Shown here one piece after another: positions 3,001-9,000 of a stretch of 29,129 nt of DNA. How positions within the stretch are numbered: position 1 is the first letter of the stretch; each line of letters begins with the position of its first letter. Position numbers: made by a program. The DNA lies in contig JAZGFI010000282.1 of assembly GCA_036479435.1 (NCBI GenBank), positions 1 to 29,129 of the forward strand, in the 5' to 3' direction. This DNA comes from Planctomycetota bacterium. GTDB taxonomy: Bacteria; Planctomycetota; GCA-002687715; DRQF01.

Positions 3001-6000
3001 GAGATTCGGCGAGACTTTTCCCGGCGAAACCAAGGTGAACGTCGGGCCGCCCACCGTCGTCATTGGCGACGCTTGTTCCGTGTGTTTTCCCTGGGGCCAA
3101 CACTTCGAATCGAGGCTTTGTTTCGAAAGCGTTGCGGGACCGTTCTGGGCGATCTTGCGCTTGAGCCGAATGGACTCCTAAGAGCCGGTTAGGATGCGGT
3201 CGATCGCCTCAAGCGAGGCCTGATCCAAGGTGTAGCCCGAGGCCTTGGCGTTCTCTTTGATCTGCCCCGGCCGCGAAGCTCCGATGATGACACTGGCCAC
3301 CGCGGGCTGCCTCAGACACCAACTGAGCGCCAGTTGCGATGCTGGAATCTCCAAAACCTTCGCCAGCTGTGCGAACTTGTCGGCTCGTTCGAGGTTTTCG
3401 GGCGTCATGTTTCGACGGATGAATTCGCCCGATTCGCCAAGCCTAGCTCGCGAGTCCTTTGGCATTGCGCCGTCGCAATACTTCCCGGTGAGGAGGCCCT
3501 GCGCGAGCGGTGAGTAGACGATCTGGCCCATTCCGACGTTGGCGGCAGTCTCGATGATTTCGTCTTCGATGACGCGGTCCAATAAGTTGTAGCGCGGTTG
3601 ATTGGTCACCGGAGGCTCGGCGCCGATCGCCAAGGCGATTTTTACGACCTCAAGTATCTTGTCCGCCGGCCATTGGCTGACTCCCCAGTACAGGATGCGG
3701 CCGCGGCGGATAAAGTCATCCATCGTTCGCACCAATTCGCGTATTGGCACATCCGGGTCGTAACGGTGGCACTGGTACAGATCGAGGTAGTCAGTGCCGA
3801 GGCGAGCCAAGGAGGCGTCCAGGCTTTCGGTAAGATGCTTACGCGAGAGCCCCTTGTCATTGGGCCCGTCGCCGGTGGGAAAAAACGCTTTGGAAGCTAG
3901 AACGTAGTCTTTGCGCGACACTCCCCTTATCGCTCGCCCCAGGGCCTCTTCGCAGGCCCCTAAACCGTAGACGTCGGCGGTATCGATGAAGTTGATGCCG
4001 CAATCAAAAGCGGCCTTCACGCAGCTCTCAGTGGTTTTCTGATCGATGCCCTGGCCGTAGGTTAGCCACGACCCCAAGGCTACTTCCGAGACAAACACGC
4101 CGCTTCCGCCCAGTTTTCGGTATTTCATGGCGGCATCATGTCGCGTCACAGCGAAAGAGAAAAGCCCGGGGATGGCCATGATTTCAGCTCAGCTGCGTTC
4201 TAGAGGCTTCGTTAAGCAGGAGCTTTTTTTTTATCCCGGGCCCCATATCAAGGATCTTAAGTCTATTAATTAAAATGGTTTACGTTGATTGTGGAGGGGC
4301 CAAGACCCCCTTCTTTCGCTAGAGGGCCCTTTTGACTTTCGACGAACGGGATCTATGGTCGTCCGGTCTGGACGCGATTTAGGGAGTAGAGCAGGGCATG
4401 AATAAGACTCTCGTCATTACCGAAAAGAAGTCGGTCGCCGACGAGTTCGCGAAAGTTCTCGGAGGGAGCCCAGCTCCTGACGGAGAGCCGCGGGAATTCG
4501 CGAAACACGATATTTACTACGAGAGCCAAGACCTCGTCATCGCTTGGGCCTCTGGCCACTTACTCGAACTCCAACAGCCCGGCGAGTACGACAAGGCTTG
4601 GAAGTTCTGGAGCCTCGAGAAGCTTCCGATCATTCCTGAGAAGTTCGTTCACCGTCCTCGCGGCGACGACGCGAAATCCAAGAAGCTTCTTACGAGCCTC
4701 GTGAAGCACATTCGGCGCGACGATGTCGACAAGGTTGTGAACGGCTGTGATGCCGGGCGCGAGGGAGAGTTGATCTTCAACCTCATCATGGATCACGCCC
4801 TTAGTGGGCGCGGCAAGACCAAGGCTCAGAAACCCGTCTCACGCATTTGGCTTCAGTCGATGACGGCGGACAGCATCCGCGCGGCATTTAGAGACATCCG
4901 CCCGGCTGCGGAGTACCAAGAGCTTCGCGACGCAGCCTATTCCCGCGACCGTGCCGATTGGTTGGTGGGCATGAACGGAACCCGTGCTCTCACCAAAAGG
5001 TTTTTGGGAGGCAAGAATCGCGTCAGCCTCGCGGTGGGACGAGTCAAGACTCCAACCTTGGCTTTCCTTGTCGATCGCGAGCGCGAAATCGACAACTTCA
5101 ATCCCAAGTCCTATTGGGAGATCAGCGCCAAATTTTCGACCGACACCCAAGGCAAGGGTGCCGAAGAAACCCACTACGAATCGAGATGGACCGGCAAAGA
5201 TGCCGACGGCAAGACAAGCGATCGTCTCGAGAATCTCGAAACGGCTCAGGCCATCGTCGACAAGGTCAAAGAGAAGGTTGGGCGCGCCGAGGACTCCATT
5301 CGGCGATCGAAAGAAAAGCCGCCACAGCTTTTTGACCTCACAACATTGCAGCGCCGCGCGAGTTCGGCCTTTGGATTCACGCTGAAGCGCACGCTCTCGA
5401 TTACGCAAACGCTCTACGAGGCCAAGAAAGCCGTAACCTATCCCCGTACCAGTTCGCGATACTTGCCAAACGACTACCGGGGCGAAACTCCAAAGATCCT
5501 CAGCCGGCTCGCCTTGGGAGGGTATGCCGAACTTGTCGCCAAGATCCCGAACCGCGACGCGCCCGATTCCGAGCGCAAAGGCATGGTTTACGACGACAAG
5601 AAAGTCTCCGATCACTTTGCGATCATCCCCACGGGCGAGGTTCCCACGAGCCTCCGCGCGGACGAAAAGAAGCTCTACGATCTCATCGTCAGGCGCTTCT
5701 TGGCCGCTTTTATGCCCAGTGCTGAACGTGAAACGATCACGCGCCGGACATTTGTGGAAGAAGAAACCTTCAAAGCCACGGCACGCAAACTTGTCGTTGC
5801 CGGTTGGCGGACGGCGGAGCCCATTGCGGCCGATGACCAACCCTTTCCAGAGCTCGATGCCGACGGCGGCATCCTCTGCCTTGAAAGCGAACTGCTCGAG
5901 AAAGAAACCTCGCCGCCTTCCCGTTACACGGACGGTACTTTGGTGGGGGAAATGGAGACCTGCGGCAAACACGTCGAAAACGAAGAAGAAGCCGAGGCGC

Positions 6001-9000
6001 TCAAAGACACGGGCATTGGAACGCCAGCCACTCGGGCGGCGATCGTCGAAGACCTCATCTACAAGCGGCTAGCTCGTCGTGATGGCCGCACCTTGGTGCC
6101 GACGGCTCTCGGTTCAACGCTCGTTCGCATCGTCCGCAACATGGATCTTGGAGCTCTCGCCAAGCCAGACTTGACCGGAGTTTGGGAACAACGCCTGCGC
6201 CAGATAACCGATGGCGAGTATCCCGCGTCCAAATTTCAAGCGGCCATCGTCTCCGACGTCGAAGAACTCGTTGCGAAAGTCAAAGGCGCCGACGACGCCG
6301 GCGCGATTTTCGCCGTCGATCACGGCGGCGAACTTCACTGCCCCAAGTGTGACAAACTCATGGTGGAAAAAGCGTACAGCTACTTTTGCACCGACCCCGA
6401 GGATTGCGACACCAAGATCTACAAGGATGCTGGTGGCAAGCATGTCTTCCCGGAAATCCTGCGACGGGTTTTGGAGGCCAAGGGCGAACTCGTCGGTCCC
6501 TTCACCGGATTCGAGCGTCCCAAGGCCCCCTGCAAGATGAAAATCGGCGACAACGCGCTCATCGTTCTCGAGCCAGAAGGCGACATCGAGTACGAGCAGA
6601 TGGGCGAGTGGAAAGTTGAAGAAGTCCCCGACGGCGAAGTCATGGGCAAGTGCCCGAAGTGCCAAGCTGAAGTGAAAGCTGAAGGCACGGGCTTCAAGTG
6701 CCAAAAGTGCAAATTCCGCCTCGGTAAGAAACTTCTGCTGCGCGACCTACCGCCCGAAGACGTCCGCAAGATGCTCTCCGGTCCGAACGAAGCCACTTCG
6801 CTCATCGAGGGCTTCATCAGCCGTCGTGGCCGCCCCTTCAAGGCCCAACTCCTCTTCGACGAAGAGGGTGCTCTCCAATGGAAGTTCCCCCCCCGCGCCG
6901 CCAAGAAGAAGACCACCAAGAAAAAGGTGGCCAAAAAGAAGACGGCGAAGAAGAAAACCGCGAAGAAGAAAACAGCTGCCAAAAAGAAGACCACCAAGAA
7001 GAAGGTCGCCACTAAGAAGAAGGTGACCAAAAAGAAGGCCCCCGACAAAGACTCGCAATCCTGAGACCTGTTGGATCGCTCGAGGAAAAGGAGACTATCG
7101 GCCTTCGCCGCCCCGCCGCTTCTGATTTTTGAGGGGTGGTGACTTTGGTCTGACGCGATTCTTCAGGGTTTGCGGATTGAAAGGGTGGTGAAAAGCGTCT
7201 GACGCTAACCTTGCGGGTTTGCTTTTGGGACTCTGGTGGCGTCTAGTTTTTTTCTTGGGGTGGGTCGACTACTTCTTCTTTTGCTTCATCTTCTTGCTCT
7301 TCGAGGAGGTCGGGAAGTTTGACGTCGACTATATCCGATAGCGTCCAGTCGGAAGCGGCGAATAAGTACTCGGATTGGCTGCTGAGGACGGGCCGGCGGT
7401 TTTTTTGGTCCTTGGCACCGATCAGGATCGTGATCTCTTGACCTCCCTCTAACTTGAGTTTGGCGCTAGTTGTGGGCTGGTCTAAGCCCTGAGTCGCCGC
7501 GGTCTTTTTGCCATAGACGAACTCGGCCCTGAGGCCGCAGAGCTTCTTCAGCAAGCCGTCGATTTTGTCTTTTTTGGCATCACCCGTTTTTGGTGACGCC
7601 ATCTTCCAGATGTATGTTGATTCGGCATCGTCTTTGGCTGTGGCCGCGTCATCACCCTCGGTCTTGGGCTCGTCGGGGCTTTTGGTCTTAAAGCGAACAA
7701 AGACCCAGTCTTTTGAGGCCCCAGCCGGACGTAGTCGCAATTCGCTGATTTGGTCCGCTTCGATCTTGAAGAGCTCACTCGATATCCAGTCCGCCATGTC
7801 GGGACTGAGATCCCAAAGTTGCAGGTCTTCGGTTTCGTAGACCTCGGCTTCGCCGCTGTTTCTGACGTAGACGGCTCGCCCGCGACTGCCCCGAGCCACG
7901 AAGAGGCTCGAGAGTGTCTTGCCCGCGGCGTCGGCCAACTCGATTTTTCTCTCGTAGAGCGCATCGGCGACTTTAGCGGGTTCGTGGTTGGACTCATTTT
8001 TGATGATGGGGCGCGCGACCTCGACGGCAATGAGCTTGCCCAAGAACTCGTCGATCTTGTCGGCTTTCGCCAAGAACCCGTCACTGCCGTCAACCGTCCA
8101 GCCAGCATCGCTCTTGGTAAGGCCGATTTCCTTTTCGTTTTGCCCATCGCGACTCGAGATTCGGATGGCTGCGACTTCGTCTTGTGCCACTTTGAGCAAG
8201 GCTTGGGGTTCGCGTTTATTCGATTCCGGGGTGTCACTACCCGAGAAGCAAAGGACCGCGAGTACGATGCCCTGGGTCAAGGCGAGGCCAATGAGGATGA
8301 GATTAAATCGACTCATGTCTTATTTCCGTTAAAGGGCGGCTTTGCGTTGGCGGCGTTGAATGACGGTCACGATGCCGATGAGAGCTAACAATCCGATCGG
8401 CACTAAGAAATTCCAAAGCTGAATGCGCTCCGCTTCGCCGTCTTCGAGGCGCTCGAGGGGACGATAGCTACGGCCGCGGTTGCGAATGCGGATAAGATCG
8501 TCGTCTTCGAGCATCCACCCGATGGCATCGAGCATGAAGCGCTGATTGAGTGAGAAGAGTCCATAGGGCGGGCCGATGTTTTGGCTAAGGCCCGCCTCCA
8601 TGTCGTCTAGCCAGTCGTCGTTTCCGACCACGATGACGCGGGTGCGTCGGGACAACTTGAGCGGTGCCGTGGCTTGAGTTTTGGGTTCTTTGTGCTCGCT
8701 CTCTTTGCCGTCTTCATCGGCGTCGTGCTTTTCGTCGCCCTCTTTCTCGTGCTCGTCACCATCTTGGTGTTCTTCGTCGTCGGCATGCTCAGAGTCAAGC
8801 GAGCCCGGAATGCTCCGCTTTGCCCAGTACGAGGGGAATTCGCCCTCGAGCAAGACTGCGAAGACCCGCTGCTTGAGTTCTTTCTCCGATGGGACCGCAA
8901 CACCCGTATCGGGGTACTTATCGACAATGGGCGCCAGAGACTGACTGGGATCGACCGTCCAAGTTCGCTCTGACGAGCGCAAAAGCCAAGTCGAGTCAAT

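What a model noticed while it worked through the whole genome (the two positions that open the first line are those of the whole stretch)
4398..7064. A whole bacterial class without topoisomerase I: the only type IA enzyme is a Topo III carrying TopA-type C-terminal rep [...]
This genome has no topA; its single type IA topoisomerase, g04382 (888 aa), is of the Topo III (TopB) type and ends in a Toprim_Crpt repeat and a Lys-rich tail of the kind found on Topo I. The same holds for every genome of class GCA-002687715, whereas nearly all other Planctomycetota have a normal TopA.
Evidence so far: TIGR01051 topA over cut-off in 0 of 23 order genomes (best 196 bits, cut 456; call 110) but in 73 of 76 other Planctomycetota at least 90% complete. 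The same gene scores 450-508 bits on TIGR01056 topB in the 21 genomes where it is whole (477 here vs 175 on topA; call 119); best Swiss-Prot hit Topo III of Bacillus cereus. Topo IB in 1 of 23. A second, Topo IV-like type II B subunit (g00047) in 15 of 23.
(Added by a program. Inside this text positions count along the whole contig: contig position 1 is position 1 of the stretch shown here. "Call 12" and the like, gene names such as g00115 and contig names such as C1 are that model's own, and its searches are not shown. The text may have been shortened before it was handed on; [...] marks where a part breaks off. The agent that wrote the report below was given it as the finding of a first reader that could run no searches.)

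Follow-up and report, generated by a model that had tools for sequence, protein, structure and literature searches.

The report
Topo III standing in for TopA
These uncultured Planctomycetota lack topoisomerase I, the DNA-relaxing enzyme that reviews say all bacteria have; a long-tailed topoisomerase III is their only enzyme of that type, and the same state turns up in other lineages, including cultured Burkholderia relatives where the gene is essential.

Summary
The core observation holds. Window 4398-7064 (+) is an intact 888-aa type IA topoisomerase, the only one in this genome. All 23 class genomes carry its orthologue and none has a TopA (TIGR01051 129-198 bits, cut-off 456). Motifs, tree and fold place it among Topo III enzymes, closest to NCBIfam PRK08173.

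Two parts of the reading fail.
(1) The tail is not TopA-type. Toprim_Crpt (PF13342) belongs to this Topo III clade; the TopA repeat is the similarly named Toprim_C_rpt (PF13368).
(2) The loss is not unique. A family of another Planctomycetota class (0 of 24 with TopA) and a one-genome class show it too. Published whole-genome Tn-seq tables of three Burkholderiaceae list Topo III as their only type IA gene, and it is essential. Betaproteobacteria-like relatives sit downstream of dprA, topA's usual slot (58 of 80 loci).

Best reading: recurrent displacement of TopA by a long-tailed TopB that took over relaxation, probably helped by Topo IV-like or Topo VI enzymes (22 of 23 genomes have one). Activity is untested. 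The class also has Lys for the "strictly conserved" Gln of GRVQ (23 of 23). Reviews still say all bacteria have Topo I; I found no paper reporting exceptions.

The parts
4398..7064 (+). topB-like gene, 888 aa, the only type IA topoisomerase of the genome (PRK08173-like, long-tailed Topo III)
4407..4802 (+). Toprim domain (aa 4-135) with E9-K10 (Topo III hallmark), class-specific K11 (EKK for EKP) and the acidic motif DAGREG (aa 118-123, 4749-4766)
5037..5048 (+). GRVK motif (aa 214-217); Lys stands where E. coli Topo I has the 'strictly conserved' Gln197 that contacts the G-strand backbone
5439..5453 (+). catalytic Tyr348 followed by Pro (YPRTS; Topo III hallmark); the usual Asp after RT is Ser, Gly or Asn in the class
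5958..6011 (+). insertion (aa 521-538) that aligns with the E. coli Topo III insertion missing from Topo I; taken as the decatenation loop (its position in E. coli is recalled); acidic here
6336..6596 (+). C-terminal unit 1: C4 zinc ribbon plus a degenerate Crpt repeat (aa 647-733)
6648..6890 (+). C-terminal unit 2: C4 zinc ribbon plus Toprim_Crpt PF13342 (aa 751-831; Pfam match aa 770-831, 6705-6890)
6903..7061 (+). Lys-rich tail (aa 836-888, 28 K of 53), predicted disordered
7243..12217 (-). ABC ATPase / permease / ABC_transp_aux / DUF4340 operon; neighbour of the gene in families f1, f2 and f4, marking an old chromosomal locus (no functional link claimed)

Best explanation
The ancestor of this class acquired a long-tailed Topo III (TopB core plus two zinc-ribbon/Crpt units plus a basic tail), lost topA, and passed the topB on vertically as its only type IA enzyme. 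Shown: loss of topA, TopB identity, vertical descent, intact catalytic residues, working-type gyrase genes. Inferred: because gyrase keeps adding negative supercoils, this TopB does Topo I's job. It binds unwound DNA, cuts one strand through Tyr348, passes the other strand and reseals, removing transcription-driven negative supercoils and limiting R-loops. Also inferred: the roughly 250-aa C-terminal region supplies the extra DNA grip that E. coli Topo III lacks and Topo I gets from its own, different tail. A Topo IV-like enzyme or Topo VI probably shares the load. The same displacement happened in at least three other lineages (Planctomycetota family f61, genome G050, Burkholderiaceae and relatives).
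For: TopB identity: best NCBIfam model is PRK08173 Topo III for 23 of 23 orthologues; EK and YP hallmarks named in PMC10969213 (passage) in 23 of 23; tree places them on the TopB side, SH-aLRT 100; top eight Foldseek hits are E. coli Topo III. Vertical descent: subtrees follow families f1, f2, f4; the same neighbour operon in f1, f2, f4; gene GC 57.4% against genome 58.1%. Gyrase: gyrB-type match in 23 of 23, A subunit in 22 of 23, GyrA box seen in the frames that could be read. Exclusion pattern: PF13342 over cut-off in 20 of 301 phylum genomes; 18 of these 20 lack TopA, and only 2 of the 277 TopA genomes have it (three lineages, kin not independent). Natural test case: whole-genome tables of B. 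cenocepacia K56-2 (6,363 rows, one COG0550 gene), Caballeronia insecticola (6,350 rows) and Paraburkholderia phymatum (7,953 rows; gene annotated with Toprim_Crpt) list Topo III as the only type IA gene and call it essential; E. coli topB mutants grow normally (PMC6160223, start of abstract). 58 of 80 betaproteobacteria-like loci have dprA just upstream on the same strand, the dprA-smg-topA arrangement of Neisseria and 14 of 24 phyla (PMC5817196 passages). E. coli Topo III relaxes transcription-induced supercoils in vitro, less well than Topo I (PMC7140829 passage); the small C-terminal domain is named as the main structural difference (PMC3488232 passage).
Against: No activity data for any member. 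22 of 23 class genomes, and 5 of 5 f61 genomes tested, hold a non-gyrase type II enzyme that could do the relaxing, and the three Burkholderiaceae have Topo IV and a second small topoisomerase (Topo IB in two tables). The gene was called non-essential in one B. pseudomallei screen and in one of three LB passages of B. cenocepacia J2315. A Crpt-bearing TopB does not force topA loss: Bacteroidota keep TopA in 200 of 201 genomes although B. thetaiotaomicron has PF13342, and G113 and G293 have both. The class changes three conserved motif positions, one of which lowers relaxation when mutated in E. coli Topo I (PMC7587558 passage). The Lys tail is weak in about half the class. In this class the gene is not at the dprA slot (different contigs in every genome with a dprA match). 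Absence of topA in Burkholderiaceae rests on annotation text, not on my own sequence search.
Confidence: 0.68

Rival explanations
1. Division of labour: topA was lost because a Topo IV-like enzyme or Topo VI relaxes the negative supercoils; the TopB stays a decatenase and resolver of recombination or R-loop intermediates.
For: 22 of 23 class genomes have a ParE-like B or second A subunit (16) or Topo VI-B (9), three have both; only G003 (86% complete) has neither. f61 has Topo VI-B in 5 of 5. Topo IV overproduction rescues topA nulls in E. coli and B. subtilis (PMC7140829 passages). The decatenation-loop insertion is kept.
Against: The type II partner changes between lineages while the long-tailed TopB is constant. 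A second type II enzyme may be there simply as a decatenase; I did not measure its frequency in TopA-bearing Planctomycetota. TopB is essential in three Burkholderiaceae that have Topo IV, unlike E. coli TopB, and sits in topA's slot in 58 of 80 related loci.
Confidence: 0.25
2. The enzyme is a chimera: a Topo III core that captured the C-terminal domain of the lost Topo I.
For: The zinc ribbons match PF01396 weakly in 19 of 76 tails; E. coli Topo I appears at rank 3 of a Foldseek search with the tail, at E 0.21; TopA proteins of a neighbouring class end in similar Lys tails.
Against: The same tail runs through the whole clade: 118 of the best 120 relatives other than the query itself are listed with PF13342 (all but P0046), and plasmid TopBs align over residues 1-833. 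TopA tails carry PF13368 or PF01396 and no PF13342. hhalign 0.3% and 8.8% (three-sequence templates). No TopA chain among the 50 entries shown by the wide fold search, best Z 3.0. Only the low-complexity Lys tail could be a local graft or a lineage habit.
Confidence: 0.05
3. Artefact: topA is present but missing from the bins, or the protein is a very divergent TopA.
For: All 23 genomes are bins, 76-97% complete; about 6 of 287 other phylum genomes also lack an over-cut-off TopA for what look like assembly reasons.
Against: 0 of 23, about 1e-23 under independent misses; the single-copy topB was recovered in 23 of 23; motifs, HMMs, tree and fold all say Topo III.
Confidence: 0.02

Closest known systems
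NCBIfam PRK08173 (NF006032) DNA topoisomerase III, the chromosomal TopB of Burkholderiales-type bacteria
   Same: Best model over the whole length (aa 1-879, 724 bits); TopB core, zinc-ribbon/Crpt units and basic tail; sole type IA gene, and essential, in three Burkholderiaceae tables (the link of those genes to PRK08173 is inferred from name, size and the Toprim_Crpt annotation)
   Different: Only about 39% identical; below the model's cut-off (670-783 against 1058); separate clade; EKK, GRVK and YPRT[S/G/N] instead of EKP, GRVQ and YPRTD; not beside dprA
E. coli Topo III (TopB)
   Same: Fold (Foldseek E 9e-51), EK and YP hallmarks, decatenation-loop insertion, 31% identity in the core
   Different: E. 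coli TopB has a short basic tail and is dispensable beside TopA; this enzyme has a 250-aa tail and no TopA partner
Bacterial Topo I (TopA), including Lys-repeat TopA of Streptomyces
   Same: Type IA chemistry; large C-terminal region with zinc ribbons; Lys-rich end; inferred cellular role
   Different: Other subfamily (ES and YM motifs, 24-27% identity); TopA tails are PF13368 or PF01396, not PF13342
Plasmid and conjugative-element TopB with Toprim_Crpt
   Same: Full-length match, aa 1-833, 36-37%; inside the same large clade; Toprim_Crpt used as a marker of CTn214 (PMC10865816 passages)
   Different: Accessory and mobile there; here chromosomal, single-copy and vertically inherited

Membership tests
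Type IA topoisomerases | Toprim plus toroidal core with catalytic Tyr, Glu, acidic motif, Arg and His | tested here: met
   PF01751 and PF01131 over cut-off; E9, D118, Y348, R350, H406 invariant in 77 aligned relatives; model pLDDT 89 matches solved type IA folds
Topo III (TopB) subfamily | Lys after the first Toprim Glu and Pro after the catalytic Tyr | tested here: met
   Feature from PMC10969213; present in 23 of 23 class proteins, absent from 6 of 6 TopA
Topo III (TopB) subfamily | Decatenation-loop insertion absent from Topo I | tested here: met
   aa 521-538 align with the E. coli TopB insertion; gap in the three TopA rows shown; that this insertion is the decatenation loop is recalled
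Topo III (TopB) subfamily | Phylogenetic placement with TopB | tested here: met
   68-row TopB side, SH-aLRT 100, 601 core columns, quick LG+G4 tree
Topo III (TopB) subfamily | TIGR01056 score over curated cut-off 515.75 | tested here: not met
   449-507 in the 22 whole proteins
Topo III (TopB) subfamily | Stronger decatenation than relaxation in vitro | not testable with these tools
   needs purified enzyme
PRK08173 equivalog | Score over cut-off 1058 | tested here: not met
   670-783 for the 22 whole class proteins; G050's protein passes at 1167, f61's three do not (705-768)
Bacterial Topo I (TopA) | TIGR01051 over 456.4; ES and YM motifs | tested here: not met
   129-198 bits; EK and YP
Bacterial Topo I (TopA) | C-terminal Topo_C_Rpt (PF13368) or Topo_C_ZnRpt (PF01396) over cut-off | tested here: not met
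   neither matches P0001; PF01396 only weakly in 19 of 76 relatives
Bacterial Topo I (TopA) | Remote structural homology of the tail to TopA tails | tested here: inconclusive
   Foldseek E 0.21; wide search best Z 3.0 and mostly on the last unit; hhalign with shallow templates
Bacterial Topo I (TopA) | Main relaxer of negative supercoils in the cell | not testable with these tools
   inferred from gene content and from essentiality of relatives

The most novel reading that the evidence does not exclude
Long-tailed Topo III enzymes (zinc-ribbon/Crpt repeats, a tail with no clear match among solved structures) form an unrecognised functional class that has replaced Topo I as the main relaxing enzyme at least four times in bacteria, so Topo I function has re-evolved on a Topo III core through a different C-terminal domain. 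This class additionally rewired its DNA-binding groove (Gln to Lys in GRVQ, loss of the YxRTD Asp, EKP to EKK).
Probability: 0.5. Interest if true: 0.8.

Novelty: new variant of a known kind. Interest (0 to 1): 0.62.

Why it matters
Three reviews state that every bacterium has Topo I (PMC2647321, PMC7140829, PMC10969213; passages). This class and at least three other lineages break that rule. Whether Topo III is only a back-up for Topo I is an open question in the E. coli literature; here are cells that appear to run on Topo III alone, and some are cultured and have genetics. It would also mean that antibacterial work aimed at Topo I has another target enzyme in Burkholderiaceae. The class itself is uncultured and is one case among several, which lowers its uniqueness but makes the idea testable.

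Tried and rejected
Paper searches for a report of TopA-less bacteria found none. The library lacks most subscription papers; a 2007 Biochimie survey of topoisomerase distribution (recalled, not read) and genome papers may mention it. PMC5778498 (passages) gave nothing on the loop or tail. PMC5729917 main text has no word 'topoisomerase'. Supplement file 6 of PMC11681206 was unreadable, and file 4 of PMC10809759 is cut in its fifth sheet (sheets 1-4 have 6,350 rows each).

I could not search whole Burkholderiales genomes by sequence: the one genome-collection scan returned eight Planctomycetota and one Bacteroidales record, and the metagenome contigs are not held as searchable records.

In-situ replacement at dprA in this class: rejected. 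Recent horizontal arrival: rejected by GC, synteny and tree. Topo IB as the substitute: 1 of 23 and 0 of 5 in f61/G050. One shared origin for the class and f61 enzymes: not favoured by the free tree (f61 groups with an Omnitrophota-labelled protein, 96-99) but not rejected (AU p 0.234, 44 of the 75 rows). Fold of the tail: no Foldseek match at E<=0.001, best VIA Z 3.0; this shows neither a new fold nor a different one. No RNA holder listed. Earlier scan notes: four look-ups, nothing returned. No complex prediction was run.
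Full report
1. The observation. Window 4398-7064 (+) is one open frame of 888 aa, reproduced without a difference by contigs of three runs. Pfam finds Toprim (4-135), Topoisom_bac (173-612) and Toprim_Crpt PF13342 (770-831). It is the only PF01131 match in the genome, and tblastn with a TopA fragment finds nothing else. All 23 genomes of the class have a type IA match; 22 have one, and G007 has two extra pieces of an ordinary TopB on short contigs. All 23 orthologues score 129-198 bits on the TopA model (cut-off 456.4). In 301 phylum genomes at least 90% complete, TopA passes in 0 of 14 class members and 277 of 287 others. 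Incomplete bins cannot explain 0 of 23 (about 1e-23).

2. What the protein is. The best NCBIfam model for all 23 is PRK08173 'DNA topoisomerase III', matched over the whole length including the tail (670-783 bits for whole proteins, cut-off 1058). TIGR01056 topB gives 449-507 (cut-off 515.75). The two Topo III hallmarks of PMC10969213 (passage) are present in 23 of 23, as is the insertion that E. coli TopB has and TopA lacks. A 75-row core tree puts the class on the TopB side (SH-aLRT 100), as one clade (100, together with one outside protein, P0047) whose branches follow families f1, f2 and f4 (quick tree, long branches warned). The AlphaFold model (pLDDT 89) matches E. coli Topo III best. 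The gene lies beside the same ABC/DUF4340 operon in 6 of the 12 class loci compared, from three families, and has the genome's GC. It is an old, vertically inherited chromosomal gene.

3. The tail is not TopA's. It holds two units of C4 zinc ribbon plus Crpt (internal match E 1e-4) and a disordered Lys tail. PF13342 is on 76 of 76 tails of this clade, on all but one of the best 120 protein hits and on plasmid TopBs that align from residue 1 to 833. TopA's repeat is the similarly named PF13368 (PMC9369019 passages); six TopA tails carry PF13368 or zinc ribbons and none carries PF13342. Only 2 of 277 TopA-bearing Planctomycetota genomes have PF13342 over cut-off. Profile and fold comparisons gave no link beyond the CxxC motif; remote homology stays open. 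Lys-rich ends occur on this TopB in f1, on TopA of a neighbouring class and, in Lys/Ala form, on betaproteobacteria-like TopB, and are weak in about half of the class.

4. The class is not alone. Family f61, in another class, has no TopA in 24 of 24 genomes while 96 of the other 97 genomes of that class have it. The nine f61 proteins fetched are long-tailed TopBs, the three compared in full 34-37% identical to P0001, on a separate branch (a common origin is not rejected, p 0.234). G050, a class of one genome, has only such a TopB. Outside the phylum, the nearest relatives (about 39%) carry labels such as Alcaligenaceae, Betaproteobacteria and Omnitrophica. With the Alcaligenaceae protein as query, 58 of 80 metagenome loci have dprA just upstream on the same strand, the place of topA in Neisseria and 14 of 24 phyla (PMC5817196 passages). 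These loci are unnamed; their grouping with betaproteobacteria comes from the tree and PRK08173 scores. Whole-genome Tn-seq tables list Topo III as the only type IA gene in B. cenocepacia K56-2 (PMC5729917 supplement 2), C. insecticola (PMC10809759 supplements 2 and 4) and P. phymatum (PMC11681206 supplements 3 and 4; annotated with Toprim_Crpt), and all three call it essential. It is also essential in B. cenocepacia J2315 and B. thailandensis, but not in one B. pseudomallei screen (PMC4993015 supplement 1). This rests on annotation text. As a control, Bacteroidota keep TopA in 200 of 201 genomes, so the long-tailed TopB allows the loss without forcing it.

5. Other topoisomerases. Gyrase genes are present. 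A ParE-like B subunit is in 15 of 23 genomes and a second A subunit in one more; Topo VI-B is in 9 of 23, including six genomes without the Topo IV-like pair; 22 of 23 have one or the other. 'Topo IV-like' is my inference from size, pairing and the missing canonical GyrA box. f61 has Topo VI-B in 5 of 5 and a single A subunit in 4 of 4. Topo IB is in 1 of 23.

6. Class-specific changes. All 23 proteins read EKK, GRVK and YPRT[S/G/N]. The 113 other type IA frames from loci (9 f61, 80 betaproteobacteria-like, 18 other TopB, 6 TopA) and 72 more distant protein hits all read GRVQ. PMC7587558 (passage) calls Gln197 of E. coli Topo I strictly conserved, a contact to the cleaved strand's backbone, whose mutation lowers relaxation. 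A Lys there could keep or tighten the contact (inference). The Asp after YxRT varies in a few other TopBs as well.

7. Mechanism. Shown: topA loss, TopB identity, intact catalytic core, gyrase, vertical descent, recurrence. Inferred: this TopB is the main relaxer of negative supercoils, its long tail giving the added DNA grip that E. coli Topo III lacks (PMC3488232, PMC7140829 passages). I put that at 0.68. The main rival is that Topo IV-like or Topo VI enzymes relax and TopB stays a decatenase (0.25).

8. Novelty. The protein is a divergent relative of a catalogued family. The state 'no Topo I, Topo III only' contradicts statements in three reviews, and seven searches found no paper reporting it, with the limit that most subscription papers are not held. 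It is visible in public annotations of cultured Burkholderiaceae, so specialists may know it. Verdict: real, new variant of a known kind, not unique to this class, directly testable. Interest 0.62.

Noticed in passing
L040-L042, L166-L171 (family f61, handles G123, G222, G281 and others): Second TopA-less Planctomycetota lineage: 0 of 24 genomes with TopA; long-tailed TopB with canonical motifs; Topo VI-B in 5 of 5 tested.
   Followed up: yes
L241:7533-14406 (G050): Sole TopB of a one-genome class, followed directly by frames that look like dnaG and rpoD (recognised by eye, not scanned).
   Followed up: partly
L077-L156: Betaproteobacteria-like topB downstream of dprA in 58 of 80 loci; in L105 a frame that looks like smg (recalled) lies between, and gyrB/dnaN/dnaA-like frames follow.
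   Followed up: partly
P0047, P0148 (806 aa; protein collection): A class-type enzyme (GRVK, YPRTS) on a long branch, labelled Planctomycetaceae or Blastopirellula in NCBI: transfer out of the class or a mislabelled bin.
   Followed up: no
L024, L025 (G007) and L164 (G389): Ordinary short TopB with a near-identical C-terminal end in genomes of two different classes: a shared mobile element or bin contamination.
   Followed up: no
L157-L163 (family f38): Genomes with TopA plus a second TopB that forms its own clade; the one tail scanned has no Crpt.
   Followed up: partly
L165 (G368:C1:312000-316500): Odd type IA protein on a very long branch (ESK, DPDREG, GRVQ, YIRTD), neither clear TopA nor TopB.
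   Followed up: no
window 7177-7221: A 45-base dispersed repeat between the gene and the ABC operon, with seven more copies on other contigs (89-96% alike); assemblies break at it.
   Followed up: partly
L243-L245: Topo VI-B and the Topo IV-like pair are nearly complementary across the class (f1 Topo IV-like only; f2 and f3 Topo VI only; three f4 genomes both).
   Followed up: partly
L010 / L026 (G011): The orthologue's last 100 residues read in another frame, probably a frameshift or assembly slip at the Lys-coding tail.
   Followed up: no
window 17759-19619 (-): AAA_21 ATPase plus DUF4276 pair, of the kind seen in abortive-infection or toxin-antitoxin loci (Pfam description; role not tested).
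   Followed up: no
G000 C235, near 11454-17068 and 49093-51615: gyrB lies beside dnaN- and dnaA-like frames, while gyrA is about 35 kb away on the same contig.
   Followed up: no
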